A model generated the notes under the pieces. That model was not told the DNA's origin, made no database searches, and saw nothing but the letters and a program-made list of their open reading frames with translations. This document shows, one piece after another, positions 791 through 16,312 of a stretch of DNA of 24,100 nucleotides; the stretch's first letter is position 1, and each line of letters starts with the position of its first letter. The stretch spans positions 1 to 24,100 of the forward strand of contig JBHHXN010000074.1 of the NCBI GenBank assembly GCA_046757025.1, read 5' to 3'. The stretch is from a bacterium (GTDB lineage Bacteria > Zhuqueibacterota > Zhuqueibacteria > Oceanimicrobiales > Oceanimicrobiaceae). A program made the translations under genes and the position numbers.

Positions 791-1864
791 TTATTTGTTT
801 TCAGAGCGAGCGGCTTTCAATCGGCGATTTATTTTTGCCAGACGGATGAGCAGGGTTTCGAGCTGTTGGGAATACGTTTCGGGTTTGAGCAAATCTTTTT
901 TCACTTTCAATTCTTCGATGGCTTGCTCCAATTTCAGCTTTTCGATCCCGAGACTGTCCGTAGCGGTGAGGCTGCCGGATTCGGCTCTGTTCAGGGTTTT
1001 TTCCAGCTCTGTAGAAAGCGGACCGAGATAAACGCGACTGGCCCAGCGCCCATCTTTGGCGTCGGTCGGCTCCTGACTGCCTTCGCCATCGCCGTTGTCA
1101 TCCAGCAGGGGATGCTCCGCGCGAATCTGACGTTTTTCTTCAAACCACTGGTCCTGGCTGGTTTTGGCGTACTTAAACGCCTCGAGCATGCTGATGCGGT
1201 TGTCTTTGTTGATGTCGGCGGCGTCGCTTGCCAGCGCTTCTAAAAAGAAGTCGGCAAAATTGGTTTCGTATTTTTCCAGGCCGCTTTTGGTGGCGGTGAT
1301 GAGCACCCGGTGTTCGCCACTCAATTTTTGAATGAACGGACCGCTGGCGCTGGCGGTGTTCACCAGTACGATTTTCTTGCTGGGCAGATTGGCCAGCAGC
1401 TCGCCGAATTCGATATCTTTCAAATCGGGTCCCTTCAAGTTGAACTTGCTAAAGGTACCGTCAAAGGTGCCGTGCCCCACGAGAAAAACGAACAGTTGGT
1501 CCTGCTCGGTCATTTTTCGTTTTAGGTGATAAAATGCCCTGCGAACGTTTTCGCCCGTGGCTGCGTAATCGATACGTAACGAGTCAAAAGCGGGCTCTTC
1601 AAAGAGATAAAGGACGTTGTCCGGCTGGTATTCAAATTTGTTTACCAGCAAATCGACCATTTGACTTGTCTGGGCGAAATATTTCTCCGAGTACTCTTTT
1701 TGACCGCCCATGCCGCCGACCACCAAGGCGTAACGTTCTCCCAGCGAAAAGGCGGTTTGTGCAGTCAATTGATGAGTGAAAAGACACCCGGCCAGCAAAA
1801 TAAATCCCCGCAATGTTTGTGGCATTTTTCTTGTTTGGTGATTTGAAGGATTTTTTCTGTTCAT
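791..1864 (-). CDS. Exported caspase/legumain (C13/C14)-fold protein with Ser at the catalytic Cys position
   Basis: N-terminal hydrophobic signal-like segment, first strand RYALVVG, LFVFLVGHG (His131), LVNTASASG (Ser172), VLITAT, Ca-loop-like DINKDNRIS and DDNGDG, and a C-terminal coiled coil. The ATG overlaps the upstream TAA (TAATG). Confidence 0.75.
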   Translation of the reverse strand: MNRKNPSNHQTRKMPQTLRGFILLAGCLFTHQLTAQTAFSLGERYALVVGGMGGQKEYSEKYFAQTSQMVDLLVNKFEYQPDNVLYLFEEPAFDSLRIDYAATGENVRRAFYHLKRKMTEQDQLFVFLVGHGTFDGTFSKFNLKGPDLKDIEFGELLANLPSKKIVLVNTASASGPFIQKLSGEHRVLITATKSGLEKYETNFADFFLEALASDAADINKDNRISMLEAFKYAKTSQDQWFEEKRQIRAEHPLLDDNGDGEGSQEPTDAKDGRWASRVYLGPLSTELEKTLNRAESGSLTATDSLGIEKLKLEQAIEELKVKKDLLKPETYSQQLETLLIRLAKINRRLKAARSENK

Positions 1865-4146
1865 TACGATAATCCTTTATGTCGCCGAACGAACCATTCC
1901 ACTGTGAGCAGAAAGATGGCGATTAAAAACAGCAGCGGCACGTCCCACAAATCGTGCTCCACTAATTTGGAATAACTGCTGTTTTGAATGGAAATTTCAT
2001 CTGCCAGGATTTTGGCTTCGTCCTGATGATAATATTTCCCTCCGCTTATTTCAGCAAGGCGTTTCAACAGATTAGATTTGAGCTGAGCATGCGAAAACTC
2101 GGTTTTCGATTCTTCCACAAAGAACGCGGTTTCGGTTTTGCCCAAAAATTTACCTGAGGATGAATACGCGCGGATATCCACCAGATGCAATCCTTTTTCC
2201 TGCGGTTGGTAGTTGGCCACGTATTCCACTTTGCCGTTTGACGACCAGTTGAACGGCACCGAGATTACTTTGCCAGAAGGCGTGGTGATGAAGGCTTTTA
2301 TGGTGGCATTTTCCACGGAATTGTAGGTGCTGTCGCGCACATCCACGCTCAGGTGCACCGCTTCGGAAGGGGCGTAGGTGTCCTGATCCAGGCGACCTTC
2401 AATGGGCGAAGGCGAGGACAGCGCCAGCCAGCGCAGCAACTGCCGCCAGAATCTTTCGTGGTTGGTGTCTTCATGGGGCAAGCCCATTTGCCAGAGCCAG
2501 GAGCTGGATGTGGAAAAAACCATGGAGCGGCCGCGGCCAAATCGTTGCTGCGCCATAATGATTTTGGGATTTTCAATTTCGCTCAAAGGATGCACCGCCA
2601 GAATGGTGGCGCCGGGTTTGGCGCGTCCCAGGGGATTGTACCCTTCCAATTCCGGCATGTTTTCCCATTTGGAGCGATTGTCACTTTCGTCGGTGGCCAG
2701 TTGCAGAATGGCGGTGTCGTAGCCCTCCGGTGTGAGCACCAGTTTGAACTTATCCCGAAAAGTGGTGGGCGTGTTTGAGGCGGTGCCGTTGTGGTACGGC
2801 AGCTCGACCGGTAAGATCTTTTCGATGGGGGTGTTGCCGTATCCGCCTTGATTGAACGAATGCACGCCGCCGAGCATCAAAAATCCACCGCCGCGCTGAG
2901 ACACAAATTCCTGGGTGTTGAGAAGCTCTTTCTCACTGAAAAAATCCGCCTCGATGCTACCCAGAATGATGGCGTCGTATTTGAACAGAGCTTCTTTGGT
3001 TTTGGGGTAACCGTCTTTTAGCTCGTTTTGATCTTTGATTCCCTGGCGGTAGAATTTGTCGACGCCGGTTCTGAGCAGCGAAACCAGCTCGATGCTTATG
3101 TCGCCATCCAGCGCCCGCCGCAAATACTTGAACTCGGCGCGCGGGTAGCCTTCAATGTAAAGCACCCTGGCTTTTTTGTGGCGGTTGTCGATCAAAAAGC
3201 TTTTGCTGTTGTTTTCTTTGATGATCTCGTTTTCGCTGGCCACCGCATTCAGCGCGTAGTGTACAAAACCGCGTTTCTGTGGTGAAAATTTCATGGTAAC
3301 GCGGGTGCCGGAGCCGCGGAGCTTTACAACTTGCTTTTTAACCAGGAGGCCTTCTTCCCGCAGCTCAATTTCAACTTCTTTATTTTCAAAGTTATTATTT
3401 TTCACCAGCGCGGAAATCTCAACCACCGAGTTTTCAATGGTGGAATGGTTGGCCGCGACTTTGGCGATTTCGATATCTTTGGAAGTCTCGCTGCCCACGC
3501 CCACCACATAAACGGGTAGATCGCTGTTATTCAAAAGGGCCGCTGTTTCCAGAGGGTCCTGTGCGGTGTTGTTGGCGCCGTCGGTCAACAGCAGCACGCC
3601 GGAAAATCGACCCTGGGAACCGATCTCACCGGCAAATTCCAAACTCGCAGCTAAGTCGGTGATTTCTCCGCCAGCGGTCAGGTGAGCGGTCTGATTGAGC
3701 CGCTCTACTTCGGAGGCAAATTTGTAGGTTTGTACTTTGAAGTTCTTTTTCAACGCTTGTAACAAGCCCGGCTGGTTTGCGTCACCAAGTAATTTTTGCA
3801 CGTAAGCAGAGCGGGATTCACCACCGTTCACGTCTTTGATGCTCATACTTTTGGAATCGTCCACCAGCAGGATCAGAGAACTTTTGCGCGGGATAACGCT
3901 GGTGACTTGAATGATAGGTTCAAACAAAGCCAGAATCAGCAGGCCGAGCACCAGCATTTTTAACCCGAGCAGCATGCCTTTCAGCCACTGAGAAAGCTCC
4001 AGCGTGGTTTTTCGATAAGCAAACCACAGAGAAAGGGCCAGCAGCGCCGTGATGCCAAGCAGGGCGAACAGCGACGGTAAAACATTAAATCCGAAATGGC
4101 CTTCTTTGTAGAGAACGGGAGAAAATTTTAATAAGAATTCAAACAT
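1864..4146 (-). CDS. Membrane-anchored vWA + Ig-like + class I glutamine amidotransferase-like (DUF1355-type) protein
   Basis: Two N-terminal TMs, MIDAS-like VDDSKSM and LLTDG, beta-rich middle part, RVLYIEGYPRAEFKYLRR, GGGFLMLGG, FGRGRSMVF..SWLW, and a C-terminal TM ending EWFVRRHKGLS. Confidence 0.85.
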   Translation of the reverse strand: MFEFLLKFSPVLYKEGHFGFNVLPSLFALLGITALLALSLWFAYRKTTLELSQWLKGMLLGLKMLVLGLLILALFEPIIQVTSVIPRKSSLILLVDDSKSMSIKDVNGGESRSAYVQKLLGDANQPGLLQALKKNFKVQTYKFASEVERLNQTAHLTAGGEITDLAASLEFAGEIGSQGRFSGVLLLTDGANNTAQDPLETAALLNNSDLPVYVVGVGSETSKDIEIAKVAANHSTIENSVVEISALVKNNNFENKEVEIELREEGLLVKKQVVKLRGSGTRVTMKFSPQKRGFVHYALNAVASENEIIKENNSKSFLIDNRHKKARVLYIEGYPRAEFKYLRRALDGDISIELVSLLRTGVDKFYRQGIKDQNELKDGYPKTKEALFKYDAIILGSIEADFFSEKELLNTQEFVSQRGGGFLMLGGVHSFNQGGYGNTPIEKILPVELPYHNGTASNTPTTFRDKFKLVLTPEGYDTAILQLATDESDNRSKWENMPELEGYNPLGRAKPGATILAVHPLSEIENPKIIMAQQRFGRGRSMVFSTSSSWLWQMGLPHEDTNHERFWRQLLRWLALSSPSPIEGRLDQDTYAPSEAVHLSVDVRDSTYNSVENATIKAFITTPSGKVISVPFNWSSNGKVEYVANYQPQEKGLHLVDIRAYSSSGKFLGKTETAFFVEESKTEFSHAQLKSNLLKRLAEISGGKYYHQDEAKILADEISIQNSSYSKLVEHDLWDVPLLFLIAIFLLTVEWFVRRHKGLS

Positions 4147-4200
4147 CGATTGTAGTTAATTTATTTTAATGATTGCGGATGGTGTTTTTAGCAACCGTAC

Positions 4201-7200
4201 CTATTTTGTTTTTGAAAGCGCTTCATAATATTTCTGTACCAGCTCCACGTATTCCGGCGGAATTTTTTCGTCTTTTGCCAGGAACAATTTTTCTCTGTTT
4301 TGCATGAGCTCCACTTTTTGCGCCAGCTCGGATTCAAAACCCTTGAGTGGAATTAACACCTGGGCTTCGATGAGCTTCAAGCGATTTTCGTCGCCGCCGG
4401 TAAACGTGCGCAAGATACGCTGCATGTTTTGGTTGATGCGGTTGGCTTGCCGGGCCAGGGAAGTGTCCACTTGTGTGGAGTTTTCAATGAATTCCAATTC
4501 CTGCAGTCCCCGGGCCAGCTCCTCATTCAGCCAGTCTAATTTGCGCGGATCGAGATCCTGATCCGGTTTGCGGTTTTCACCGGGGCCGGCGCGTCTGGCT
4601 TGCGCGTTCTCCCTATTTTGCCCGGAATTTTGATTTTCCTCGGATGCCGCTCGGTTGAGCTCCTGTGCCTGCCTTTGAATGGCTTCCAATTTTTCACGCA
4701 GTTTGCGAGTCTGGTTGAGCGCCAGGTCCAACTTTTCCTCTTCCGAGTCCGCGAAACGACTCTGCATACGAGTGAATTTGTCCTGCATTCTTTCCAGCAT
4801 GTTTTTAATGTCGCGCTCCGCTTGCAGTGCAGAGTTTAATCGGTTCTTGGCTAGCATATCTTCGGCGCTGTCCATTTTCCGTTCGATTTTGGCGTTTTCC
4901 AGTTCCTGTGAAAATTTATGGAGATGCCGCGTGGCTTCGTTTTTGGATTTGCCGGCACTGTCCGAAAGGTTCTTTATCTTTTCCTTCAGCGCTGCGTAAT
5001 CCTGTTTGACTTTCAGCTGAGCTTGCTGTGCTTGGCTTTTTTCTTTCTCGGTACCTTGCTGGTTTTTAGTCATTTCTTCAACATCTTTGGTGAGCTTTTT
5101 TTGAGAATTGGCCAGCCTCTGAAATTGTTTGTCGATGGAATCAAACTGCCTTCTCAGGGATTCTTTCTGATTTTTCTCCAGTAATTTTTCCAGTTGTTTC
5201 AGGCGATTTAATGCCTGCTGGCCTTTGGCCGCCGCTAAATCGGTGTTTTGCTGCCGAAGATTTTTAGAGGAGTTGTTCATTTCCGAAGAGGAGCGTCGTA
5301 AGTTCTCCTGGATGTCTCTGGACAAGCTGCGGTTTTGCTGCCCTGACTGCTGCATTTTGCGCGCAAGCTGTTGAGTCTCTCGACGCATTTCTTCCTGCAG
5401 CCGGCGCAGCTCCTGAATTTGTCGACGTTTTTCTGCTGGCGGCAGCTTCTTTTTAGCCAGGTTGCGCAATTTTTGATTGACTTGCTGCTGACGCCGCGCC
5501 AGCTCTTTCACTTTTTCCAGAGCCTCATCAACTTGTTGGTCCGCCTGTTTCTGCAGATTGTCACGCGCCGACTCATATTTGTTTTTGAGCTTATCCATTT
5601 CATCTTCGAAAAGCTGTGCCAGCTCATCGAGGGTGGCGCGGTTGCTAGCGCCCTGAGCTTGCGCCTGCTGCAATTGCAATTCGGTCATTTGCGCTTCCGC
5701 CCGCAGTAAACTCTGCAGGGATTCCCTTTCCGGCGTCTGAGCTTCCTTTAATCTTTTTGCCTGCAATGCTACCACAGCCCGGCCCATGGCTTCCACCGCG
5801 TCTGAGTAAAATTCGGTGATGTTGCCTTCGTTGTTGCGCGAGAAAAACGACCGTTGTTGAATTTGGTAAAGGGTATTTTGGGTGACTTCCTGCAGGTTTT
5901 CCTGACTTTCTACCAGCACGTCCACACTTTCCTGAAATTTTTCCGGAGTGAGCATGTCTTTTTTTCGAAACAGCTTCCAGGTTGCCACCATGATGTCTTT
6001 TTGTGTTTGTGACAACCGGCCGCCGGGTCCGCTCATGCCGGCCATTTGACCCTGAGATACTGGTCGCAGGAAATCTTTTTCAAACGGCCGGATTTCCAGA
6101 AAGAAAATCTCGGAAGTCACCGGCGCCATGTTGGCTGCGTGGTTGTTGTCGTTGGCCTGTACATAGTAAGTTACAAAGTCGCCGGGCTGAACCTGCATGT
6201 CCTCCAGAAAGAAATCGTAATGGGCGCTGAATTCCTGAATTTCCTCGAATGAAACCTGTTTAGAAGATTTCAGGTTTTTGTCGATGGGCAGGCTGACAGT
6301 TTGGTCCTCTCCGCCGCTGACGGTGTAAATCAATTTCAGATCCGCCAGCCCATAATCATCCTGGATACTCACGCGGATGGGCACTTCTTCCAGCATGGTG
6401 ACTTTCAGGTCGCGGCCGGGCTCTTGCAGAGAAAGTGTGGGCGGTTGATCCGGCATGGCGTGCACAAAGTACTCCAAGGGCAAGTTGCTCAAACCATCCA
6501 GATCCGTGATCAAAATCTTGTAGTACGTGTCGTGCGTCACTTTGAGGGAAGCGGTCACCACCGTATCCTGTCTCACTGTGGTTGGCAGTTTTTTACCTTC
6601 GCCTACCAGCACCAAGCCTTCTTTGAGCGGTTTGTCGGTGATGGCGGTAATCCGCACCACCGAGCCTTCCGGCGCCCAGATGTCGCCGCTGTCCATCTCT
6701 TTTTTAGGACGCAGGCCGGTGTAGTCTGGAAAACGGTAGTACAAGTCCACACGTTTGATGGCGGGTGCGTCGTACAGATTTACGGTGTAAATTTCAGAAA
6801 GCTGTTCCTCGGCTTTTACGTAGTATTTGGTGGGTTGCTGCAAATCAAAAAAATTGTAAACAAACGTGTTGGGCTCCTTAGTCCGGTCCATGGCGATTTT
6901 GTTCCACAGAGAATCGTTCGTGGTGTAATATAAAACCATCTCTTCCGAATCAAATCCGCTGATTTCGGCTTTGATTTCCTGGGCAGAACCGCGGGGCAAT
7001 CGCACGTTTCCGGGTGTGACCTCCAAACTTTTACCCAATTTGATATCCGGTATGGACCACGGTTTGAAAAGCCGGTTGGATTTGAGCGTGATGAAATCCA
7101 GATTTGAAATCGCCAGCGCACTCAGAAAAACACAAACCGTCAACGCCAGGCTGCTCCAGGCGATGGCGGTGCGGGCGTGAATTTCTTTCGGCAGGTTCAT

Positions 7201-7605
7201 CGGTTCGATGTGAAAACGCGTGTCCTCCAGCAGCTTGTTGAGGATCTGAGCGGAAATCCGGGGATCGTCGGCGCCTCCTAACTCCACCGCGCTCACCAAC
7301 CGATCTTCCAATTCCGGATGCCTTTCTTCAATATAGCGTGCGATCTGATTGGCGGACGGCGCTCGCCGCAATGGTCGCAGCAATTCTCTGTAAAACAACA
7401 TCAAAAACACCGCTGCGCTCACCAGCAGCATCGCCAGTCGAATGGAATTGTTCAGCACAAAAAACGTGTCCAGCGCAAACGCCAGCAGCAAGGTGCCGAT
7501 AAGCGTGAGCAGCACTTTTGCACCGCCGCGGATCAATATCAACTTCCGCCAGCGGCGAAAGACTTGCGTGATTCTTTCTTGCAGTATTTTATGTTGAAGA
7601 TTCAT
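4201..7605 (-). CDS. DUF4175-like membrane protein with Ig-like domains and a very long coiled coil
   Basis: 1134 aa; three N-terminal TMs around ARYIEERHPELEDRLVSAVEL, beta-rich domains (DDYGL, YYVQAND), about 500 aa of Q/E/K/L-rich helix, and C-terminal IPPEYVELVQKYYEALSK. Confidence 0.8.
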   Translation of the reverse strand: MNLQHKILQERITQVFRRWRKLILIRGGAKVLLTLIGTLLLAFALDTFFVLNNSIRLAMLLVSAAVFLMLFYRELLRPLRRAPSANQIARYIEERHPELEDRLVSAVELGGADDPRISAQILNKLLEDTRFHIEPMNLPKEIHARTAIAWSSLALTVCVFLSALAISNLDFITLKSNRLFKPWSIPDIKLGKSLEVTPGNVRLPRGSAQEIKAEISGFDSEEMVLYYTTNDSLWNKIAMDRTKEPNTFVYNFFDLQQPTKYYVKAEEQLSEIYTVNLYDAPAIKRVDLYYRFPDYTGLRPKKEMDSGDIWAPEGSVVRITAITDKPLKEGLVLVGEGKKLPTTVRQDTVVTASLKVTHDTYYKILITDLDGLSNLPLEYFVHAMPDQPPTLSLQEPGRDLKVTMLEEVPIRVSIQDDYGLADLKLIYTVSGGEDQTVSLPIDKNLKSSKQVSFEEIQEFSAHYDFFLEDMQVQPGDFVTYYVQANDNNHAANMAPVTSEIFFLEIRPFEKDFLRPVSQGQMAGMSGPGGRLSQTQKDIMVATWKLFRKKDMLTPEKFQESVDVLVESQENLQEVTQNTLYQIQQRSFFSRNNEGNITEFYSDAVEAMGRAVVALQAKRLKEAQTPERESLQSLLRAEAQMTELQLQQAQAQGASNRATLDELAQLFEDEMDKLKNKYESARDNLQKQADQQVDEALEKVKELARRQQQVNQKLRNLAKKKLPPAEKRRQIQELRRLQEEMRRETQQLARKMQQSGQQNRSLSRDIQENLRRSSSEMNNSSKNLRQQNTDLAAAKGQQALNRLKQLEKLLEKNQKESLRRQFDSIDKQFQRLANSQKKLTKDVEEMTKNQQGTEKEKSQAQQAQLKVKQDYAALKEKIKNLSDSAGKSKNEATRHLHKFSQELENAKIERKMDSAEDMLAKNRLNSALQAERDIKNMLERMQDKFTRMQSRFADSEEEKLDLALNQTRKLREKLEAIQRQAQELNRAASEENQNSGQNRENAQARRAGPGENRKPDQDLDPRKLDWLNEELARGLQELEFIENSTQVDTSLARQANRINQNMQRILRTFTGGDENRLKLIEAQVLIPLKGFESELAQKVELMQNREKLFLAKDEKIPPEYVELVQKYYEALSKTK

Positions 7606-7699: not shown

Positions 7700-9778
7700 T
7701 CAACGGTACGTTCGATTGGCTAACCAGGTTTCCCCGATCAAAAGCAAAACCACCGCCAGCAGCGCCAGCCGCCAGAGTTTCTGATGCCGTTCTTTTTCGA
7801 TTTCTTGCAGGGGCGACGACAAGGCAGCGGTTTGCGGTTCGGGGTCTGCTTCCGAGGTGATTTGACTCTGAAGTTCTGCTAAATTTAGCTGCGTCAAATC
7901 GGCTTCTGTCGGGTCTATGTTGACCGCAAATGCTGCCAGCGCCCGCTTGCGCCCTTTGCGCAAAATGCGGTAAATTCCCAGCGTGGCGGTGTTTTTAAAC
8001 AGCACCTCTTTCAGATCGACTTTTTCACCATCCGGTTTCGCCACTTCAAAGTGTACCTGGTTGTTGGCGGTGCTGGCAAAATTGTGCAGTGCCACGGGCT
8101 GCCCCACCAAATACGACCTCTGGCCTTTTTCCTGTGGCGCGATATGCTGCAGCGTCTGGTAGAGGATGGGTAGAAATATCGCTTTCACCGGCAGATTATT
8201 CCACTCGGCGTCCAAACTGGAGGTGAAGAGGACGACTTTGCCATCCCCAACATGGCGCTCTAAAACCGCCGGACCACCGTCATCGTACGAGGCCAACACC
8301 GACGAAGCAGCGTACGGCTGAGTGTAGTAATACTGGTAAAATTGCGCGGTGCCGGGATCGCCCTGACTGGCGTCTGAAAATATCTTGAAGATGGGATGCT
8401 GATAATCGGTCTCCGCTAAAATCACGCTGTTTTCACGATTGACGGAATCAAAAGCCAAATTGTTGATGGTCGCCGGCGAGAGCTCCTGAAAAAGGCGATT
8501 GTAGATTGTTGGGTTCACGCGATCTCCCAAGGCGATCAGCAGCCCGCCGCCATTGCGCACGTAATAATGCAATTGCTCCAGAATGGTCCTTCCCATATCT
8601 TTCACGTTGGCTAAAATCACCGTCTGGTAATCGTTAAAATCCACATTGTGCAGTTGTTCTGGCGTAGTGTTCGTCAACTTGAATTTTGAGAGTTTTGGCA
8701 GATTGAGCGCCCGATCGAGGTAGAACAACTCGTCTTTGATGACGTCCCGTCGGTCCGGCTCGCCGTCCACCGCCAGAATTTGCGCCTGGTTTTGCTTCTC
8801 GATAACAAAATAATGGTGATTGTCTTGCCACAGTCCGTCCTTCTGAGCCCGAATTTCCACGTGCCCGGTGACCTGTCCTTTAGGAATCCGCACATTCGAA
8901 AATTGCACAATTTTTTCTTCATCTGCCGCAAGCGACACCTTTCTCTGTGCCACTTTGCGCTGGTTGATATGCAGAAGGACAGTGGCTTGTCTCTTTTTCC
9001 CGCCGTAATTTTTAATTCGCACCAATGCGTTCTTATTTTTGCTCGATTTTCTGGTAGCTGAAATATGGACTTCTTTAATGGCCAGGTTGGTATGGTTTTC
9101 AGGAGCCACATCCATAAAATGTAAACGAATGTCCGGCACGACGCCGATGTTTGAATATAAAGTGGGTAAGCCGCTTTTCTGGAAATCGGAAATGAGGTAC
9201 ATTTCTTTCAAATTAAAACCCGTATCCAGCAGGTAAGTCTCGGCTGACTCGATGGCGATCAAATAATGGGTGCCGAAATTGGTAAGCGGAATTTTGCTTT
9301 CGATTTCGTTTTGGGTTAAAGCGTAATTTGAAGTCATCTCGCTGATGATTTTCGCGCTTTCCGCAAAGGACATGATGGCGACCTTGTCACCCGGATTAAA
9401 AGAAGCCAGCACCTTTCTGGCGTTTTTAATTGCTTCCTGGAACTTTTCTCCGTAATCCATGCTGTATGAGTTGTCGATCAAAATCACTGCGGCTTTCGGT
9501 TGCCGGCTCCAGATGCTGTCCGGATCGGTATTGGCGAAATAGGGGCGGGCAAAGGCCAGGGCTAACAACGCCAGCGCCAAAATGCGCATGAGCAAAAGAA
9601 GAAGCTGTTTGAATTTTTGTGACTTGACTTTTTGATTCGGATGGATCTGCAAAAAACGCATGGCGGCAAACGGCAGTTTCACCGCGCGATTGCGTTTGAT
9701 CAAATGGATGATGATGGGAATGCTGGTGGCTACCAGTCCCCACAAAAAGAGAGAATTTAAATAAGTCAATCCAAACAT
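7700..9778 (-). CDS. BatA-type N-terminal double-TM + vWA + Ig-like + GATase-like protein
   Basis: IPIIIHLIKR...FAAMRFL...LLLLMRILALALLALAFARP (BatA N-terminal domain), MIDAS IDNSYSM and ISDFQ, GGGLLIALG, HPIF, and a C-terminal TM LWRLALLAVVLLLIGETWL. Confidence 0.9.
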   Translation of the reverse strand: MFGLTYLNSLFLWGLVATSIPIIIHLIKRNRAVKLPFAAMRFLQIHPNQKVKSQKFKQLLLLLMRILALALLALAFARPYFANTDPDSIWSRQPKAAVILIDNSYSMDYGEKFQEAIKNARKVLASFNPGDKVAIMSFAESAKIISEMTSNYALTQNEIESKIPLTNFGTHYLIAIESAETYLLDTGFNLKEMYLISDFQKSGLPTLYSNIGVVPDIRLHFMDVAPENHTNLAIKEVHISATRKSSKNKNALVRIKNYGGKKRQATVLLHINQRKVAQRKVSLAADEEKIVQFSNVRIPKGQVTGHVEIRAQKDGLWQDNHHYFVIEKQNQAQILAVDGEPDRRDVIKDELFYLDRALNLPKLSKFKLTNTTPEQLHNVDFNDYQTVILANVKDMGRTILEQLHYYVRNGGGLLIALGDRVNPTIYNRLFQELSPATINNLAFDSVNRENSVILAETDYQHPIFKIFSDASQGDPGTAQFYQYYYTQPYAASSVLASYDDGGPAVLERHVGDGKVVLFTSSLDAEWNNLPVKAIFLPILYQTLQHIAPQEKGQRSYLVGQPVALHNFASTANNQVHFEVAKPDGEKVDLKEVLFKNTATLGIYRILRKGRKRALAAFAVNIDPTEADLTQLNLAELQSQITSEADPEPQTAALSSPLQEIEKERHQKLWRLALLAVVLLLIGETWLANRTYR

Positions 9779-9781: not shown

Positions 9782-10675
9782 TTAGCCCTTTTTGCTGCGA
9801 TACGCCAAAAAACTAAACAACGCGAAATCGAGTGGTTTGGAAGTGTTCAGGACATGATAGTCGATTTTCAATCTGCCACACTCCCTTTTAAAGGTGTCGA
9901 TGTGCTCGTTTAGATTTTGCAGATACGTATCCCGCACCAGAGATGGGATGGCGACAAATTGCGCCGTGCCTTCCAGGTCGATAAACTTGGTGGCGTTTTC
10001 GAAGGGGAAATTCAACTCGGTTTCGTCCATCACATGAAAAATGATGACATCGTGCCCTTTGAAGCGAAAATGCTGCAATCCTTGCATCACCGTCTGCGGG
10101 TCGTCCAAAAGATCGGAGATCAGGATCACCATGCCTTTCTTGTTCAGCTTTTCCGCCAGCTGGTGCAAAGGAATGGCTATTTTCGTCTCCTGTCCTTTTT
10201 CTAATTTTTCGAGATAGCGCAAAATCGAAAGCAGGTGTCCTTTTTTATTTCTCGAAGGGAAAAATTGTTTGATCTCCTGATCAAAAGTCACCAGACCCAC
10301 GCCGTCGCGCTGTTGAAACATGAGGTAGCCTAACGATGCCGCCACGTACGAGCCGTATTCCAATTTCGAGATGCCTTTGCTGGTGTAATTCATGGATGAG
10401 CTGATGTCCAGCAAAATATGACAGCTCAAATTGGTTTCTTCTTCAAATTGTTTTAAATAGTAGCGATCGGAGCGTGCGTACACTTTCCAGTCGATGAAGC
10501 GGGTGTCATCGCCGGGGGCGTATTCCCGGTATTCGGCAAACTCCACGCTGAATCCGCGATACGGGCTGCGGTGCAATCCGGAAATGAATCCTTCCACCAC
10601 GGTGCGGGCGCGCAGCTCCATGCTGGAGATTTTCGAAAGAATTTTGGGCTCTAAAAACCGCAATTGATTGGACAT
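9782..10675 (-). CDS. DUF58 family vWA-like protein (MoxR partner)
   Basis: GLHRSPYRGFSVEFAEYREYAPGDDTRFIDWKVYARS...KQFEEETN, MIDAS LLDISSSM and ILISDLL; immediately downstream of moxR. Confidence 0.95.
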   Translation of the reverse strand: MSNQLRFLEPKILSKISSMELRARTVVEGFISGLHRSPYRGFSVEFAEYREYAPGDDTRFIDWKVYARSDRYYLKQFEEETNLSCHILLDISSSMNYTSKGISKLEYGSYVAASLGYLMFQQRDGVGLVTFDQEIKQFFPSRNKKGHLLSILRYLEKLEKGQETKIAIPLHQLAEKLNKKGMVILISDLLDDPQTVMQGLQHFRFKGHDVIIFHVMDETELNFPFENATKFIDLEGTAQFVAIPSLVRDTYLQNLNEHIDTFKRECGRLKIDYHVLNTSKPLDFALFSFLAYRSKKG

Positions 10676-10836: not shown

Positions 10837-11865
10837 TCAAATACCGGATCGGGGTTCGGGCACCGTTTCCAGCAGTCGATTGATGATATCCACCGAGGTG
10901 ATTTTTTCGGATTCCGCATAGAAATTGGTTAAAATGCGGTGCCGTAAAACCGGCAGCGCCAGCGCTTTGATATCTGAAATCGAAACGTTGTAGCGGCCTT
11001 CCATGATGGCGCGCGCTTTGCCGCCCAGTATCAAATATTGCGATGCGCGCAGTCCCGCACCCCAACTGACCCAATTTTTCACAAATTCCGGATTCTTGTT
11101 ATTGGTGGGCCGGCTGGCGCTCACCAGGCGCACCGCATACTGCGCCACTCCTTTTGCCAGCGGCACTTTGCGCACGATCTTCTGATATTCCATGATCTCC
11201 TGGCCCGAGATGACGCTTTGCAGGTCCGGCACATAATTCGAAGTCGTGGAGGTCACCACTTCCACTTCTTCCTCTTCCGGCAAATAATCCATCACAATGT
11301 TGAACATAAAACGATCCAGTTGCGCCTCGGGCAGGGGGTAGGTGCCTTCCAGCTCGATGGGATTCTGCGTAGCCAGTACAAAAAAGGGCTCTTCGAGATG
11401 GTAGGTTTTTCCGCCGGCAGTGACCCGGTGCTCCTGCATGGCTTCCAGCAACGCCGACTGGGTTTTGGGCGGTGTGCGGTTGATTTCATCGGCGAGGATG
11501 ACGTTAGCAAAAATGGGTCCTTTGATGAAATTGAGCGTTCTTCGGCCGGTGGTTCGGTCTTCCTCGATGACGTCGGTTCCGATGATATCCGCCGGCATGA
11601 GATCGGGTGTAAACTGAATACGGTTGAATTTCAAATCCAGGATCTCCGCGATGGCTCGTATCAGCAGGGTTTTCGCCAGCCCGGGCACGCCGGTGATCAG
11701 ACAATGCCCGCCTGAAAACAGCCCGATCAACACCTGCTGGATCACTTTGTCCTGGCCGGTAATGGTCTTTTTGAGCTCGGAAATGATTTTTTTGTTGCCC
11801 TCTCTGAGCCTTTCTACCAGCACCAGATCTTGTTTTTGTTCCGTTAATCTTTCGAAGTCCGACAT
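10837..11865 (-). CDS. moxR: MoxR family AAA+ ATPase
   Basis: Walker A GVPGLAKT, RIQFTPDLMPADIIG, Walker B ILADEINRTPPKTQSALLEAM, ATQNPIELEGTYPLPEAQLDRF, VLRHRI; SD GGAG upstream of the ATG. Confidence 0.97.
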   Translation of the reverse strand: MSDFERLTEQKQDLVLVERLREGNKKIISELKKTITGQDKVIQQVLIGLFSGGHCLITGVPGLAKTLLIRAIAEILDLKFNRIQFTPDLMPADIIGTDVIEEDRTTGRRTLNFIKGPIFANVILADEINRTPPKTQSALLEAMQEHRVTAGGKTYHLEEPFFVLATQNPIELEGTYPLPEAQLDRFMFNIVMDYLPEEEEVEVVTSTTSNYVPDLQSVISGQEIMEYQKIVRKVPLAKGVAQYAVRLVSASRPTNNKNPEFVKNWVSWGAGLRASQYLILGGKARAIMEGRYNVSISDIKALALPVLRHRILTNFYAESEKITSVDIINRLLETVPEPRSGI

Positions 11866-11928
11866 ATCTTCTCCATTTTAAAATGCTTTTCTCAGGACGA
11901 TTGACTTTTTAGTGTCTGAACGAAATCG

Positions 11929-12032
11929 ATTCCTCTGTTTCACGAAGGCTTCCGGGCCGAGGTTGACGCTCTGCATCTCTCAGTGGAGCCTGTCCGGAGC
12001 CTTGTCGAAGGGACGTCTTCGCAACAGAGAAT
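11929..12032. repeat. Intergenic inverted-repeat element containing a CCTTCGACAAG..CAGGC-type short repeat
   Basis: Imperfect inverted arms ATTCCTCTGTTTCACGAAG (11929-11947) and CTTCGCAACAGAGAAT (12017-12032); internal GCCTGTCCGGAGCCTTGTCGAAG (11988-12010) flanked by GGA on both sides. Confidence 0.45.
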
Positions 12033-12058: not shown

Positions 12059-12832
12059 TTAATGTGTTAATGCGTAAATAACAAAATTTATTCCTAACTT
12101 AAATGCTTCGGCTGAGTATTTCGGCGGGTAGCGCGGGTCTTTGGCGTGTTCCCAGGCGTCTCCCATGTCCATGTTGCGGATGACCAGCACCATCAACCGT
12201 TCCTGATCATCGAAGATGCCCATGCAGCGCTGGTTGATGCCGCCTTTCTCAAACGTGACGCCGCGCAGCCAGGAACCCAGACCCGGAATCTGGACCACTT
12301 CGTCGAAATCATAAAAACAGTGAAAAATTGGATGGTCGATAGGAATATCGCTGATTTTGCGTTTCGGAAAGACTTTCTTCATCTGGTGCACAAAACTTTG
12401 CCATTCGAAGGGTCCGTGAAAGTCGTCCACCATCAAAAAACCGCCGCGCATGAGCCACTCGCGCAGGCTGTCGGCCTCACTCTGGTTGAGGGTCATGAAA
12501 CCGACTTCGACCATATAGGCGAACGGGTAGCGAAAGAAATCCGAATCAAAGAACGAAAGCGACACGGGGTGGTCGGCCACATTCAACGCCGTCCAGTTTT
12601 TGAGTCCCTCCATGAAATTTTCTTCTGCTGAGGGATAATCCACTGCCCAGCTCAACCAATTGGGCCCAAAGGGATTTCGCAGGCGAAAATTCGTGCCGCC
12701 GGAATGATACTTTATTCTCACAAAAGTAAACTCATCGCCGCTGCTACCCTGTGCAAAAGTGAATGAGGGTGTTTGAAATAAAAGAAAAATTGCAATTAAG
12801 ATGCGGCCTGCTCTCAAAGATGCGGTATTCAT
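12059..12832 (-). CDS. DUF4159 domain protein (exported), paralog 2
   Basis: Signal peptide ending AQ, FTFVRIKY, WAVDYPSAE, RGGFLMVDDF, HPIFHCF, DMGDAWE, LGINFVIYALTH. The ATG at 12832 (GAAGGG upstream) is preferred over the TTG at 12844. Confidence 0.88.
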   Translation of the reverse strand: MNTASLRAGRILIAIFLLFQTPSFTFAQGSSGDEFTFVRIKYHSGGTNFRLRNPFGPNWLSWAVDYPSAEENFMEGLKNWTALNVADHPVSLSFFDSDFFRYPFAYMVEVGFMTLNQSEADSLREWLMRGGFLMVDDFHGPFEWQSFVHQMKKVFPKRKISDIPIDHPIFHCFYDFDEVVQIPGLGSWLRGVTFEKGGINQRCMGIFDDQERLMVLVIRNMDMGDAWEHAKDPRYPPKYSAEAFKLGINFVIYALTH

Positions 12833-12847
12833 TGCGCCCTTCAATGG

Positions 12848-13564
12848 TTAGTGCGAGTATGAATAGATCAAATAGTTTATTCCGAGTTTATAGGATTCGG
12901 TGGAGAACTCCGGCGTTTCGTTGGGCAACTCCCAGCCATCTCCCACATCGTTATTATAATTTATTATGACCATGATTCTATCGTTCTCATCAAAAATCGC
13001 CCAATATTCCGGAGGAACGGATAGATAAGGTGTTAGCTGGTGAATGTCAGAATTTCGTAGATCGAAAAAACAATGAAAAATCGGATGGGTTACATTCAGT
13101 TTGCGTATGGAATGATTAGGCAGCACTTTGCGAATTTCGTTGATCCAGTTCTGCCACTCAAAACGCCAGCGGAAATCGTCCACCATGAGAAATCCTCCGC
13201 GCAACAGATATTCTCTGAGATTTTTCACTTCGGCATCCGACAGGGTTAAATAGCCGATTTCGCACGCGTAGATAAACGGGTACTTAAATATTTCTTCGTC
13301 TGCAAACGTCAAAACTTTGTTATCTTCCGAAACTTTAATACTTGTGGTCGCTTTTAAGGCGGTGTACAGGTTCTTCTCTGCCTGCGGGTAATCGTGCGCC
13401 CAGAAAGGGGCGTTGGTTGAGAATCCGTATCCATAACGGATGCCGTTTTCCTGCCAGCGAATACGGATAAATTTAAATTCATCTCCTGAAGGTACTTGTG
13501 CGATTACAGCCTGGGACAACCACAACAGCAAAAACAGCAAGCAAAAAATTGGTGTGATTTTCAT
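12848..13564 (-). CDS. DUF4159 domain protein (exported), paralog 1
   Basis: Signal peptide MKITPIFCLLFLLLWLSQAVIA, FKFIRIRW, WAHDYPQAE, RGGFLMVDDF, HPIFHCF, DVGDGWE, LGINYLIY; SD AAGGA upstream. Confidence 0.9.
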   Translation of the reverse strand: MKITPIFCLLFLLLWLSQAVIAQVPSGDEFKFIRIRWQENGIRYGYGFSTNAPFWAHDYPQAEKNLYTALKATTSIKVSEDNKVLTFADEEIFKYPFIYACEIGYLTLSDAEVKNLREYLLRGGFLMVDDFRWRFEWQNWINEIRKVLPNHSIRKLNVTHPIFHCFFDLRNSDIHQLTPYLSVPPEYWAIFDENDRIMVIINYNNDVGDGWELPNETPEFSTESYKLGINYLIYSYSH

Positions 13565-13687: not shown

Positions 13688-16312
13688 TTATTCAACACAC
13701 TCGAGTAGAATGTTCTGAGCCTTTTCGAAATTCGGTGCGATTTCCAGTGCCGATAGCGCCGACTTTTTGGCTTCGGATTTTCGGCCGGCTTTCAAATAGG
13801 CTTCGGCTAAATCGCAATGCGCTCCCGCCATATCCTGTGGCTGCGTCACAAGTAAAATTTGCAGCTCGTCGATGGCTTCGTCGTAGCGTTTTTCTGCCAG
13901 ATAGGCCGAGGCCAGCATTTTGTGGACTTCGGAATCGAAGGGCGTGTTGTAAATGATTTTGTTCAGCGCAACGATGGCATCTGAGTGATTATTTACCTCG
14001 ATACAAAGTTCCGCCAGCTTCGTTAATGCTTGAGTGTTTTTCCCATTTAATGCGGTGAGCGACTTGAGCTCTGTAATCGCTTCCTGCTTCTGATGGTTCT
14101 TTAAATACAACTCAGCTAATTCGCTGTACGGATTGCTTTCATGAATGTATTGCGGAAACAGCGTTTTCGCTTTGCGCAGGTATTGAATAGCCAGCTTCAT
14201 CTGGTCGTTTTCTTTATAATACCTACCAAGCATAAAATTTAAGAACGGATTGTTGGGCTTTTTTTCGAGCTGCTCTTTTAAATAGGTTTCGCGATCCGCG
14301 GCGTGAGCTTTGAGCTGGCGCGGATCAAAGGAATAATCCACCTCATCCATACGATATGCTTGCTTGATGAACAATTTGAATTCTTCGTTTAGTGCATCCA
14401 GGTCTTTTTTGTACACTTTGTAAAAAACCTGCCCGGTCGTTAAACCGGCCTTAAACTCAGGAAATGTTTGGGTGAGCCGGCTGTGACCGTATTTCTCAAC
14501 CAGAAATTCCACCACTTTTGAAGCCTGAAAATAAGAAAGCGAAACCTGACCGGGTTTGGTGGGTCGGTTGAAGCCGCTATCCAGCTCTTTCAGGGGCAGC
14601 AGTTGGTTGCTCAAAAAGGCTTGAATAAATGGCAAATCCAGCGGCATGCTCCAGTGCGGTTTGGCTGTGGCGGTTTCATAAACCGCGATGCCTTCGGCAA
14701 GCCAGCGCGGAATGCGGTTGTCCGTTAAACGCAGGTGGCTGACGTGCACCAGCTCATGCCATAGAGTTTCACCCCAAACAAAGTCGCCTTTGCTGCGGGC
14801 ACGCGGGGAGTCCATGGCCACCACGTTGCCAAAGCATATACCTAAAAAGGCGTCCGAACCGGGCAGTCCAAAGCAGCGCACCGCGAAATCATCATGCTCT
14901 GGAAAGATTTCCAGCAGAAAAGGTTCAGCGCCGGGTGTGGGATATTTATGGGATAAATCCGCGTAACTTTCCTGTGCCAGCGCAATGGCATATTTTGATA
15001 ACACCGCATCGTCCCTTTTGTGCATGCGCACGATAAAATGGTCGGTGGTATGACTCTGGTAGTCGGGGAATTCATCGAAGAGTTGCAGCAAATTGCCAAC
15101 ATATTTGTTGAACGGATCTTTAGCAAAGGCTCGTTCCAGGGCTAGTTTGCCTTCTTTTTCTCGTCCCAATCGGCTTAAACTGGTACCCAGGCCGGAGTAA
15201 GCCGACCAGTGCTCCGGATCCAAGGCCAGGGCTTTTCGATAAAATTCCACCGATTCCTGAAACAGATAACGTCGGGCCAGAATTTCCGCCACTTGATAGT
15301 ACAAATCACCGTAGTTTGGATTAATGGTGAGAATTCGGGAGGTTTCTTCGGAGAATTTGGAATCTTCCTTGAGAAAATAAAAACAAACGGCTCTCAGGCT
15401 GCGAGTGCTTAATGCGTGGGGATTGATCTTTAGCTGGTTCTGTAATTTTTCCAGAGCGGTTTCAAAATTACCCATCAGGATTTCGAATTCTGCTAACAGA
15501 TCGAGTGCGGCAATTAAATTAGGATTGATTTTCAGAGCCAGCTCCGCCGACATTTTCGCCTTTTCCATATCCACGCGCCGCCAGCATTTTGCCAAACCTA
15601 AATGTGCGCGCGCGGCATTGGGATTGATTTTGAGGGCTTTCTCATACACCTCGAACGCGTCGGCGGTGTTGTATTTGGAAACAAAAAGATCGCCGAGATG
15701 GAGGTAGGCCGGCCAGTAGGTTTTATCCACATCCGTGGCCTCATAAAAAACGTTGCGGGCATCGTAAAAGCGCTCCAAATACACGCATGCCCGGGCGATG
15801 AAGTCCAGCTCCCGGGCGCTCAAATTGCTACGGGATCGATAATAGGTGATAAAATATTGCAGCGTGCGGCGGGCAGCTTGCTTTTCGCCCCACTGCCACT
15901 GCATGATTCCGTAATTCAGCCGGGCTGGCAAATGTTCAGGATTGACTTCCATGGCTTTCTGAAATGAGCTGCGAGCGGCGGCATAGTCGCCGTGCAGCCA
16001 GGCGATCTCCCCTTGGAGATTCAGGGCCTCGGCGTTGCCGGAGGCCGTCTTCAATACCCGCGACGCCCAATTCTCCGCTTTTGTATAATCGCCGGTTGCG
16101 AGCCATACGCGCACAAGCCCCGTTTCGGCCTCGAATGCGGTGGCTGAATTTTGAACTGCGGCTGCAAATATTTTGGCTGCTTTTTCGTACTCGCCTCGAT
16201 TAAACAAATCGTAGGCATCGCGAATTTTTCCGCTGTCCTGGGAGTAAAGTGTGGCCGCACCCACCAAAAAAAGAAAAATGAAGATGATTGAAATCAGGCG
16301 AATCGTTTTCAA
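13688..16312 (-). CDS. Exported TPR-repeat protein with a central peptidase MA (gluzincin)-like domain
   Basis: TTG start with SD AGGAG and a signal peptide; many TPR-like repeats (A...NP/DP) at both ends; HELVH (14744-14758) plus downstream PRWLAEGIAVYE providing the third zinc ligand. Confidence 0.88.
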   Translation of the reverse strand: MKTIRLISIIFIFLFLVGAATLYSQDSGKIRDAYDLFNRGEYEKAAKIFAAAVQNSATAFEAETGLVRVWLATGDYTKAENWASRVLKTASGNAEALNLQGEIAWLHGDYAAARSSFQKAMEVNPEHLPARLNYGIMQWQWGEKQAARRTLQYFITYYRSRSNLSARELDFIARACVYLERFYDARNVFYEATDVDKTYWPAYLHLGDLFVSKYNTADAFEVYEKALKINPNAARAHLGLAKCWRRVDMEKAKMSAELALKINPNLIAALDLLAEFEILMGNFETALEKLQNQLKINPHALSTRSLRAVCFYFLKEDSKFSEETSRILTINPNYGDLYYQVAEILARRYLFQESVEFYRKALALDPEHWSAYSGLGTSLSRLGREKEGKLALERAFAKDPFNKYVGNLLQLFDEFPDYQSHTTDHFIVRMHKRDDAVLSKYAIALAQESYADLSHKYPTPGAEPFLLEIFPEHDDFAVRCFGLPGSDAFLGICFGNVVAMDSPRARSKGDFVWGETLWHELVHVSHLRLTDNRIPRWLAEGIAVYETATAKPHWSMPLDLPFIQAFLSNQLLPLKELDSGFNRPTKPGQVSLSYFQASKVVEFLVEKYGHSRLTQTFPEFKAGLTTGQVFYKVYKKDLDALNEEFKLFIKQAYRMDEVDYSFDPRQLKAHAADRETYLKEQLEKKPNNPFLNFMLGRYYKENDQMKLAIQYLRKAKTLFPQYIHESNPYSELAELYLKNHQKQEAITELKSLTALNGKNTQALTKLAELCIEVNNHSDAIVALNKIIYNTPFDSEVHKMLASAYLAEKRYDEAIDELQILLVTQPQDMAGAHCDLAEAYLKAGRKSEAKKSALSALEIAPNFEKAQNILLECVE

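What the first reader, a model, noticed from the sequence alone, without database searches (positions are those of the whole stretch)
791..16312. Nine-gene MoxR/vWA cluster that looks like an ATP-driven trans-membrane envelope machine of unknown function
Seen: nine co-oriented genes with tight junctions (3-nt gap, TAATG overlap) and a clear topological split. MoxR and DUF58 lack signal peptides. Three proteins are membrane-anchored and, by the positive-inside rule, place their vWA, Ig-like, GATase-like and coiled-coil domains outside the cytoplasm. Four (TPR-peptidase, two DUF4159, caspase-fold) carry signal peptides. Established: MoxR ATPases work with vWA partners as chaperones or remodelers, and the Bacteroides bat operon has a related MoxR-DUF58-BatA core. 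I recall similar gene sets in other diderm phyla but know of no demonstrated function. Inference: a cytoplasmic AAA+ motor coupled through the inner membrane to a periplasmic scaffold with proteolytic modules, for assembly, quality control or export of envelope proteins.
Basis: partly seen in the sequence, partly recalled or inferred. Interest (0 to 1): 0.7.

Follow-up and report, generated by a model that had tools for sequence, protein, structure and literature searches.

The report
Nine-gene MoxR periplasmic remodelling module
Nine neighbouring genes that are inherited together across several bacterial phyla encode a cytoplasmic ATPase, membrane-anchored proteins, a zinc protease with an intact active site and a protease-like protein lacking its catalytic cysteine, and they likely form an ATP-driven machine that tends proteins outside the inner membrane; this is an enlarged relative of the known but mechanistically unsolved Bat/Cmd envelope operons.

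Summary
The nine genes are real and co-oriented, but only 3 of 8 junctions are tight. Order is identical in KSB1-type relatives and Desulfobacterota, permuted in Acidobacteriota and scattered yet complete in five other genomes. Three markers (TPR-peptidase, vWA-GATase-like membrane protein, caspase-fold protein) occur in exactly the same 37 of 113 genomes of the phylum. Hydropathy and charge bias support the topology; it was not measured. Corrections: only one protease keeps its catalytic residues. The caspase-fold protein keeps His (149 of 150) but has no Cys at the nucleophile site (0 of 150). Every family of the alphaproteobacterial cmd-type operon (envelope-integrity phenotype reported in Rhizobium) has a remote homologue here, so the kind is known. 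The host also carries a classical Bat operon and a second, dispersed paralogous set, so this cluster is an accessory copy with added protease parts. Best model (about 0.4): MoxR-DUF58 twists the cytoplasmic faces of the membrane subunits and cycles periplasmic vWA grips on envelope clients, with proteolytic disposal. Coupling across the membrane is untested. The scan has already noted this cluster type in at least five other genomes. New variant of a known kind.

The parts
13688..16312 (-). g1, 874 aa: signal peptide, TPR repeats, gluzincin (Peptidase_MA_2) domain, C-terminal TPR repeats; intact zinc site H519-E520-H523, E540 and Y594
   Evidence: all five residues in 24 of 24 homologues
12848..13564 (-). 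g2, 238 aa: secreted DUF4159 protein A
   Evidence: relative of structural-genomics entry 4i66
12059..12844 (-). g3, 261 aa: secreted DUF4159 protein B (40% identical to g2); near-invariant R43, W66, D69, D140, D141, N224, N253 suggest a ligand pocket
10837..11865 (-). g4, 342 aa: cytoplasmic MoxR-proper AAA+ ATPase; Walker A, Walker B, sensor I and Arg finger invariant in 30 of 30
   Evidence: tree
9782..10675 (-). g5, 297 aa: cytoplasmic DUF58 vWA adaptor with MIDAS D90-S92-S94 and D188 invariant in 40 of 40
7700..9778 (-). g6, 692 aa: BatA double-TM anchor with basic cytoplasmic loop, then vWA (MIDAS), Ig-like, GATase-like, Ig-like, C-terminal TM; invariant TM2 Arg65 and near-invariant TM3 Glu683
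4201..7605 (-). g7, 1134 aa: DUF4175-type protein with three TMs, a 75-residue cytoplasmic domain with conserved acidic residues, a beta-rich region (about 190-510) and a long helical region (511-1134)
1864..4146 (-). g8, 760 aa: full-length paralogue of g6 (2 TM, vWA with MIDAS, Ig, GATase-like, Ig, helix-strand-helix, TM) without the BatA loop
   Evidence: hhalign 99.7%, 559 columns; model
791..1864 (-). g9, 357 aa: secreted caspase/legumain-fold pseudo-protease (His131 kept, Ser172 at the Cys site), an EF-hand-like loop (217-228), a DxDG-type acidic loop (255-260) and a C-terminal helical hairpin
11906..12030 (.). dispersed intergenic repeat inside the g3-g4 gap; not part of the system
   Evidence: 65 blastn hits elsewhere in the genome for the g3-g4 gap

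Best explanation
The nine proteins likely form an ATP-driven remodelling and quality-control machine for envelope proteins, in which a cytoplasmic MoxR-DUF58 motor would act through three inner-membrane subunits on clients held in the periplasm. Shown: one inherited unit, intact ATPase, three intact or near-intact MIDAS sites, one intact zinc-protease site, one pseudo-protease, and a conserved predicted topology. Inferred step 1, by analogy with NorQ-NorD: a MoxR hexamer grips DUF58, whose MIDAS binds acidic residues on the cytoplasmic domain of g7 and/or docks on the BatA loop of g6. Inferred step 2: ATP-driven twisting moves the membrane helices of a g6-g8 pair, whose vWA domains sit between TM2 and TM3, and so switches their periplasmic MIDAS sites between gripping and releasing a client, as in integrin inside-out signalling. 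Inferred step 3: the DUF4159 pair, the GATase-like domains and g9 recognise or present clients without catalysis, g7 serves as a periplasmic scaffold, and the TPR-gluzincin g1 degrades clients that are not rescued. The clients are unknown.
For: g1, the g8 orthologue and g9 occur in the same 37 of 113 genomes of the phylum and were not found in the other 76. All eight families lie within 10 kb of g8 in 32 of 79 loci, and g9 lies downstream in 63 of 65 loci with room. All parts are retained in five near-complete genomes where they are scattered over several loci. Motor and MIDAS residues are invariant or nearly so. The three-TM, vWA-in-periplasm topology was shown experimentally for the Borrelia BatA-type protein BB0173 (PMC5700661). 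NorQD remodels a membrane protein from the cytoplasm through its vWA partner (PMC13036017; PMC9976466). g7 has conserved cytoplasmic acidic residues (E93 21 of 26, E100 20, D101 21), while the BatA loop is basic. g8 residues 685-720 weakly match the last vWA elements of BatA/BatB, placing the vWA C-terminus next to TM3. cmd mutants are reported to have envelope and shape defects, and in Rhodobacter a MoxR gene and a TIGR02302 gene both appear among CenR envelope-regulon targets. A secreted tandem-PDZ gene flanks the cluster in 15 of the 24 KSB1-type loci.
Against: No interaction, activity, client or transcript was shown. The mechanical steps rest on analogy with MoxR systems of another subfamily (NorQD), and a pore-entering finger in DUF58 was not demonstrated (atlas score 0.75 to VWA_CoxE is a lead only). 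The g8-to-BatA C-terminal match is weak (E 0.07 against the whole ORF set), and g6 showed no such match. The MIDAS Thr of g6 is kept in only 27 of 40. Deleting the Leptospira biflexa bat genes gave no growth, shape or stress phenotype (PMC3557215). The cluster was not found in 76 of 113 genomes of the phylum, so it is dispensable. Homology to the cmd proteins is remote (E about 1e-19).
Confidence: 0.4

Rival explanations
1. MoxR-DUF58 is only an assembly chaperone: it helps the membrane subunits fold, pair or load metal once, and the periplasmic complex is then a static envelope scaffold carrying a protease.
For: NorQD and related MoxR-vWA pairs act as maturation factors. The orphan MoxR-DUF58 pair on C110 may serve the dispersed paralogues in trans. 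All co-occurrence data fit equally well.
Against: Invariant charged residues inside the TMs and intact periplasmic MIDAS sites tied to the TMs suggest moving parts, though they could be structural.
Confidence: 0.22
2. An inducible defence system that extracts and degrades incoming membrane-active toxins or foreign proteins, working like Pseudomonas Arc2.
For: Arc2 (MoxR plus vWA protein) protects against a predicted pore-forming toxin (PMC8926400 passages). This cluster is an accessory second copy beside a near-universal paralogue (108 of 113 genomes have some g8 homologue) and adds a protease.
Against: Gene content and order are stable within families (14 of 14, 8 of 8, 11 of 12), with no variable sensor or effector gene among recurring neighbours and a G+C content like the genome (0.49 vs 0.47). 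Arc2 proteins were not compared here.
Confidence: 0.15
3. An outside-in signalling relay: periplasmic domains sense a ligand and control MoxR activity on cytoplasmic targets, as proposed for the actinobacterial Esr pathway.
For: Esr uses MoxR and vWA proteins downstream of surface sensors (bioRxiv 10.64898/2026.09.08.750141 passages). Several non-catalytic, ligand-binding-type domains are present.
Against: No kinase, FHA, sigma, anti-sigma or DNA-binding domain among the nine proteins, and no gene family recurs beside the cluster across phyla.
Confidence: 0.07
4. An aerotolerance or periplasmic redox system, the classical Bat model.
For: 36 of 37 cluster-bearing genomes have a strong heme-copper-oxidase-family hit against 13 of 76 others; the carriers fall in only five families, so these are not independent.
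Against: No CxxC or CxxCH in the nine proteins; 1 of 226 homologues has a CxxC, and g6 and g8 have no Cys at all. Leptospira bat deletion gave no oxidative phenotype.
Confidence: 0.06
5. A GPI-transamidase-like anchoring machine in which g9 uses a His-Ser dyad to cut and transfer client C-termini to a lipid or cell-wall acceptor.
For: g9 has the fold of PIG-K (Z 18.5, rmsd 3.9, 221 aligned). His131 is kept in 149 of 150 and Ser sits at the nucleophile site in 123 of 150.
Against: The same site is Pro in 13, Ala in 10, Asn in 3 and Gly in 1 of 150, which an essential nucleophile would not tolerate. Metacaspase and legumain score higher (Z 21.0, 20.9).
Confidence: 0.05
6. A protein export system.
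For: Mycobacterial MoxR1 is reported to assist Tat export of RipA (review PMC12067865 passages).
Against: No polytopic channel, secretin or beta-barrel in the cluster; no twin-arginine signal in the secreted members (0).
Confidence: 0.05

Closest known systems
cmdA-D (RL3499-RL3502) operon of Rhizobium leguminosarum; examined through the Sinorhizobium meliloti locus L120, taken as its counterpart by gene content (inference)
   Same: MoxR (46% identical), DUF58, a BatA-vWA-GATase-like protein, DUF4159 and a g8 homologue, in the order MoxR-DUF58-BatA.
   Different: There DUF4159 is fused to the BatA protein; no DUF4175, TPR-peptidase or caspase-fold gene was detected in that locus; its MoxR lies outside the clade of the nine-gene clusters (long branch, placement unsure).
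Bat operon of Bacteroides, Leptospira, Borrelia and Riemerella
   Same: MoxR-proper ATPase, DUF58, a BatA double-TM anchor and a pair of three-TM vWA proteins; a TPR protein.
   Different: No BatD or SH3/BatE domain hit; the vWA proteins carry added Ig and GATase-like domains. The host's classical Bat operon is a separate locus on C27.
NorQ-NorD (and CbbQ-CbbO) MoxR-vWA remodellers
   Same: AAA+ MoxR plus a MIDAS-bearing cytoplasmic vWA partner acting, here by inference, on a membrane protein.
   Different: Other MoxR subfamily; the target here is predicted to be co-encoded membrane subunits with large periplasmic domains, not a respiratory enzyme; the finger was not demonstrated.
Arc2 (PA4317-23) of Pseudomonas aeruginosa
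   Same: MoxR and vWA genes in a multi-gene envelope cluster with a defence phenotype.
   Different: Other components were not compared here; the passages read mention no protease or DUF4159.
Metacaspase, legumain and PIG-K (clan CD) for g9
   Same: Fold (Z 18-21, rmsd 2.6-3.9, 205-221 aligned) and the GHG histidine.
   Different: No Cys at the nucleophile position in 150 of 150 family representatives.

Membership tests
MoxR-proper (MRP) operon | AAA_3 MoxR with intact Walker A/B and Arg finger | tested here: met
   PF07726 213.7 bits; motifs invariant in 30 of 30
MoxR-proper (MRP) operon | adjacent DUF58 gene followed by vWA membrane protein(s) | tested here: met
   g4-g5-g6 order in the window and in relatives
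Classical Bat operon | BatA N-terminal double-TM anchor plus vWA | tested here: met
   PF07584 61.1 bits, TIGR02226 67.2 bits
Classical Bat operon | BatC short TPR protein and BatD/BatE (BatD, SH3) genes | tested here: not met
   BatC model 31.7 bits vs cut-off 175; no BatD or SH3 hit in the nine proteins
Classical Bat operon | aerotolerance phenotype | not testable with these tools
   needs mutants; no redox motifs found
Cmd-type operon (RL3499-RL3502) | homologues of MoxR, DUF58, BatA-vWA-GATase-like protein, DUF4159 and second vWA-GATase-like membrane protein | tested here: met
   S. meliloti L120 as stand-in: profile hits E 4e-109, 2e-22, 2e-19, 1e-19; DUF4159 by Pfam
Cmd-type operon (RL3499-RL3502) | four-gene layout with DUF4159 fused to the BatA protein | tested here: not met
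   nine genes, two free DUF4159 proteins (vs 58, 66)
Cmd-type operon (RL3499-RL3502) | envelope and morphology defect on deletion | not testable with these tools
   reported second-hand for Rhizobium
Clan CD cysteine peptidase (g9) | caspase-hemoglobinase fold | tested here: met
   model pLDDT 81; Z 21.0, rmsd 2.9, 215 aligned to metacaspase 4
Clan CD cysteine peptidase (g9) | catalytic His | tested here: met
   H131 in 149 of 150 and 53 of 53
Clan CD cysteine peptidase (g9) | catalytic Cys nucleophile | tested here: not met
   metacaspase-4 position 139 aligns with S172; Cys in 0 of 150 there, 7 of 150 one residue later
Gluzincin (clan MA) peptidase (g1) | HExxH, downstream Glu ligand, catalytic Tyr | tested here: met
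   24 of 24 each; PF13485 70.8 bits. The role of Y594 is assigned from recalled M1-family knowledge
Gluzincin (clan MA) peptidase (g1) | proteolytic activity | not testable with these tools
   needs assay
Class I glutamine amidotransferase enzyme (g2, g3, g6, g8 domains) | conserved Cys at the nucleophile elbow | tested here: not met
   Cys in 0 of 57 (g8), 0 of 40 (g6) and 6 of 43, unconserved (DUF4159), in the segment taken as the elbow; elbow position assigned from recall
NorQD-like finger-in-pore remodeller | finger on the vWA partner entering the MoxR pore | tested here: inconclusive
   DUF58 has an invariant-rich segment before its vWA; no NorD match in PDB sequences; atlas 0.75 only; DUF58 was not folded alone
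MoxR-vWA-beta-propeller ternary conflict system | beta-propeller sensor and effector genes | tested here: not met
   none among the nine proteins; bpMoxR 44 bits vs AAA_3 214 bits

The most novel reading that the evidence does not exclude
A bacterial inside-out 'integrin' machine: a cytoplasmic AAA+ motor turns ATP into cycles of grip and release by paired periplasmic vWA domains, giving the ATP-free periplasm an actively powered unfoldase-protease pathway, with a calcium-binding pseudo-metacaspase as substrate receptor. It would also explain the Bat and Cmd operons as simpler versions of the same machine.
Probability: 0.25. Interest if true: 0.8.

Novelty: new variant of a known kind. Interest (0 to 1): 0.45.

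Why it matters
MoxR-DUF58-BatA operons are widespread and affect envelope integrity, stress survival or virulence in several bacteria, yet the papers read give no mechanism and no role for DUF58 (PMC12067865; PMC3557215). This version keeps all parts together, adds a protease that can serve as a substrate trap, and occurs in cultured harmless bacteria (Terriglobus sp. ADX1, L111; Gemmatirosa kalamazoonensis, L121). If the motor drives periplasmic domains, it would be a route for ATP-powered work outside the inner membrane distinct from ABC transporters and proton-driven TonB/Tol systems. As it stands it is a well-supported but ordinary-in-kind cluster whose mechanism is a hypothesis.

Tried and rejected
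Complex prediction of DUF58 with the N-terminal membrane parts of g6 (1-90) and g7 (1-175): no verdict, score 0.21 against a mark of 0.32, controls not folded. RNA runs: no RNA holder was listed for window 4000-13900, so co-transcription is open. Promoter and terminator scan: 20 promoter-like sites vs 15.7 +/- 3.9 expected and 37 terminator-like vs 26.3 +/- 5.7; uninformative. Rfam: no match. Whole-chain Foldseek of the g8 model (pLDDT 70, pTM 0.60) gave only TM-scores up to 0.18 among the listed rows, so no full-length structural relative was listed; single domains were not folded. The g1 peptidase domain has no sequence match in the PDB at E <= 1. No internal repeat found in g7 by self-BLAST. 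No extra gene family recurs beside the cluster across phyla. The Vanderlinde 2011 cmd paper is not held. The 2026 DUF-interaction preprint concerned DUF5819, not DUF58. Rejected: g9 as a cysteine protease; the GATase-like domains as amidotransferases; identity with the classical Bat operon; recent horizontal acquisition (G+C 0.49 vs 0.47, and the MoxR groups with same-class relatives; tree midpoint-rooted, no clade test); ORF 339-767 (+) as a tenth gene (no Pfam hit). The DUF4159 pair of G030 (L025) was fetched and left out of the synteny counts because it is a different, 414-aa type with no cluster genes.
Full report
OBSERVATION. Nine ORFs lie on the minus strand from 16312 to 791. I number them g1 to g9 in reading order. 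The gaps are 123, 3, 193, 161, 3, 94, 54 and -1 nt, so three of eight junctions are tight. In relatives several of these gaps shrink to a few bases, and the 193-nt gap contains a dispersed repeat. Promoter, terminator and Rfam scans add nothing, and co-transcription remains open.

TOPOLOGY. I used hydropathy, charge bias and a simple signal-peptide rule across homologues, not SignalP or DeepTMHMM. g6, g7 and g8 each keep three hydrophobic segments (74-100% of 40, 26 and 57 sequences per segment) and lack them in the large domains. The g6 loop between TM1 and TM2 has a median of 9 Lys/Arg; the g7 N-terminus has 5 against 0 in its first loop. This puts the large domains outside. Signal-like N-termini occur in 22 of 24 g1, 38 of 43 DUF4159 and 39 of 53 g9 homologues, against 3 of 30 MoxR and 1 of 32 DUF58. 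The same three-TM, vWA-out topology was determined for Borrelia BB0173 (PMC5700661; abstract, passages and Discussion read).

CONSERVATION. Titles of the closest records point to candidate phylum KSB1. In 24 loci fetched around paired DUF4159 genes of relatives, the order is the same as far as each contig reaches. Fourteen of the 24 show all eight families; nine are cut by contig ends, and in one (L024) g9 lies on another contig. A scan of species genomes with the g8 alignment confirmed 498 relatives, of which only the best 79 loci were returned; some repeat the contigs above. Of these, 32 hold all eight families within 10 kb of g8, and g9 lies downstream in 63 of 65 with room. Desulfobacterota loci keep the window's order, Acidobacteriota loci are circularly permuted, and a Calditrichia locus shows no DUF4159. 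In five near-complete genomes the genes are scattered as g4-g7, g8-g9, g1 and two separate DUF4159 genes, yet all are kept. Among 113 genomes of the phylum at 90% completeness or more, g9, the g1 peptidase domain and the orthologous class of g8 occur in the same 37 and were not found in the other 76. These 37 fall in five families, so they are few independent events. The 19 MoxR proteins of such clusters form one supported clade (99/97), apart from the host's three other MoxRs and the S. meliloti one (midpoint root, no clade test, two long branches).

ANATOMY. MoxR motifs are invariant in 30 of 30. The MIDAS DxSxS and Asp are invariant in DUF58 and g6 (40 of 40) and nearly so in g8 (55-56 of 57); the g6 Thr is kept in 27 of 40. 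g6 and g8 are full-length paralogues (99.7%, 559 columns), differing mainly in the BatA cytoplasmic loop of g6. The g8 model shows vWA, Ig, GATase-like, Ig and a helix-strand-helix before TM3. That last element weakly matches the end of the vWA domain of the host's BatA and BatB (E 5e-5 and 2e-4 among six proteins, 0.07 genome-wide for the better one), so the Ig-GATase-Ig cassette may be inserted into the vWA. Both proteins carry a charged residue in TM2 and a Glu in TM3 (g6 R65 40 of 40, E683 39 of 40; g8 R/K63 46 of 57, E750 55 of 57). The GATase-like domains lack a conserved Cys. DUF4159 has a structural-genomics relative (4i66) and a set of near-invariant polar and aromatic residues. g1 keeps H519, E520, H523, E540 and Y594 in 24 of 24. 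g9 folds like metacaspase and legumain. The metacaspase-4 nucleophile position aligns with S172; among the best 150 of 1393 family representatives at E <= 1e-30 this site is Ser 123, Pro 13, Ala 10, Asn 3, Gly 1 and never Cys, while H131 is kept in 149. g9 is therefore best read as a pseudo-protease. None of the nine has a CxxC motif.

GENOMIC SETTING. The host has four MoxR-DUF58 pairs: this one, a classical Bat operon on C27, a third cluster on C35, and an orphan pair on C110. Dispersed paralogues of g6, g7, g8 and DUF4159 also exist, and some g8 homologue is found in 108 of 113 genomes. I infer a six-part core (MoxR, DUF58, g6, g7, g8, DUF4159) that is near-universal in the phylum, and that the window holds an accessory second copy extended by g1, g9 and a doubled DUF4159. 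Carriers are mostly genomes with heme-copper oxidases (36 of 37 vs 13 of 76 at E < 1e-120), a lead only.

MECHANISM. NorQ grips its vWA partner NorD by a finger in the pore and twists it to remodel a membrane protein whose acidic surface residues bind the MIDAS (PMC13036017 abstract and Discussion; PMC9976466 passages). Applied here, DUF58 would be the adaptor and the co-encoded membrane subunits its target. g7 offers conserved cytoplasmic acidic residues; the BatA loop offers two conserved Phe (36 of 40 each) and almost no acids. Because the periplasmic vWA domains hang between TM2 and TM3, helix movement could toggle their MIDAS sites. Non-catalytic domains would select clients and g1 would destroy failures. 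Every step after the anatomy is inference; I put this model at 0.4, one-off assembly chaperoning at 0.22, defence at 0.15, and signalling, redox, transamidation and export at 0.05-0.07 each. An envelope-related role of some kind is much more likely than any single mechanism.

COMPARISON. A S. meliloti locus has MoxR, DUF58, a BatA-vWA-GATase-like-DUF4159 fusion and a g8 homologue (two ORFs in that record). I take it as the counterpart of Rhizobium cmdA-D by gene content. The cmd paper is not held; its envelope and morphology phenotype is known to me from passages in bioRxiv 10.1101/551135 and PMC5700661, and RL3499 and RL3500 appear as growth-impaired on TY medium in table rows of PMC5118466. 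Against a strong general phenotype, Leptospira bat deletion showed none (PMC3557215 passages). Riemerella moxR and batA mutants show stress phenotypes (PMC11834572 passages). A MoxR gene and a TIGR02302 gene are both listed as CenR targets in Rhodobacter (PMC9275681 table rows; their orthology to g4 and g7 was not checked). Acinetobacter AdvA, annotated with DUF4175, is a division protein (PMC7481262 passages; not compared here). Arc2 and Esr show MoxR-vWA pairs in defence and signalling (passages). The cluster is not the classical Bat operon and not a four-gene cmd operon, but it belongs to the same MoxR-DUF58-BatA kind.

NOVELTY. I found no paper describing this nine-gene set. Searches: DUF4159 with MoxR, 0 papers; whole-word TIGR02302, DUF4175 or DUF4159, 7 papers, three read in passages and four seen as listings only; further searches, seen as listings except the papers cited. 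The library omits most subscription papers, and no supplements were read; comparative surveys of MoxR neighbourhoods (Snider and Houry 2006, Bhandari 2022; seen only in reference lists) may list this context. The scan's own notes record the same cluster type in at least five other genomes; these are unchecked and were not counted as evidence.

VERDICT. A real, tightly co-inherited module; a new variant of a known kind with an unsolved mechanism. Interest 0.45. The boldest reading not excluded, an ATP-powered inside-out vWA machine for periplasmic proteins, has probability about 0.25 and would merit 0.8.

Noticed in passing
window 16695-17864 (+): Secreted tandem-PDZ protein with no protease domain hit, divergent from g1; a homologue flanks the cluster in 15 of the 24 KSB1-type loci but was not seen beside it in other phyla. 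Possible sensor of exposed C-termini.
   Followed up: partly
L016:202-1653 (+) and 8 other loci, some of them duplicates: An M48 metalloprotease gene lies downstream of g9 in several KSB1-type relatives.
   Followed up: partly
G000 C110:8506-10422, C7:47269-49359, C2:10584-12767, C2:88223-92297: A second, dispersed set of paralogues (MoxR-DUF58, g6-like, g8-like, DUF4159-DUF4175-TPR); some g8 homologue occurs in 108 of 113 genomes of the phylum.
   Followed up: partly
G000 C27 (L028) and C35 (L026): A classical Bat operon, and a third MoxR-DUF58-BatA-anchor cluster with a g7-like gene and a DUF4159 on the opposite strand; the genome has four MoxR-DUF58 pairs.
   Followed up: partly
window 1-315 and 11906-12030: Dispersed intergenic repeats (94 and 65 blastn hits elsewhere in the genome for the two regions); REP- or MITE-like by impression only.
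   Followed up: partly
window 791-1864, g9 residues 217-228 and 255-260: EF-hand-like loop with D217 and E228 in 150 of 150, and an acidic DxDG-type loop; calcium binding is inferred from motif recall.
   Followed up: partly
L007:149-781 (-): A second, partial g9 copy downstream of the cluster in G008.
   Followed up: no
L098 (Nitrospirota), L107 and L122 (Planctomycetota): Variant clusters: a double-DUF4159 fusion without g1 or g9 in L098; g8-DUF4159-g9 lacking the C-terminal hairpin in L107; a plasmid-borne version in L122.
   Followed up: no
phylum survey: 36 of 37 carriers have a strong heme-copper-oxidase-family hit against 13 of 76 non-carriers; only five carrier families, so not independent.
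   Followed up: partly
window 18189-23649: Unrelated neighbours: secreted alpha/beta hydrolase, ceramidase-family membrane protein, YchF, lysylphosphatidylglycerol-synthase TM protein.
   Followed up: no
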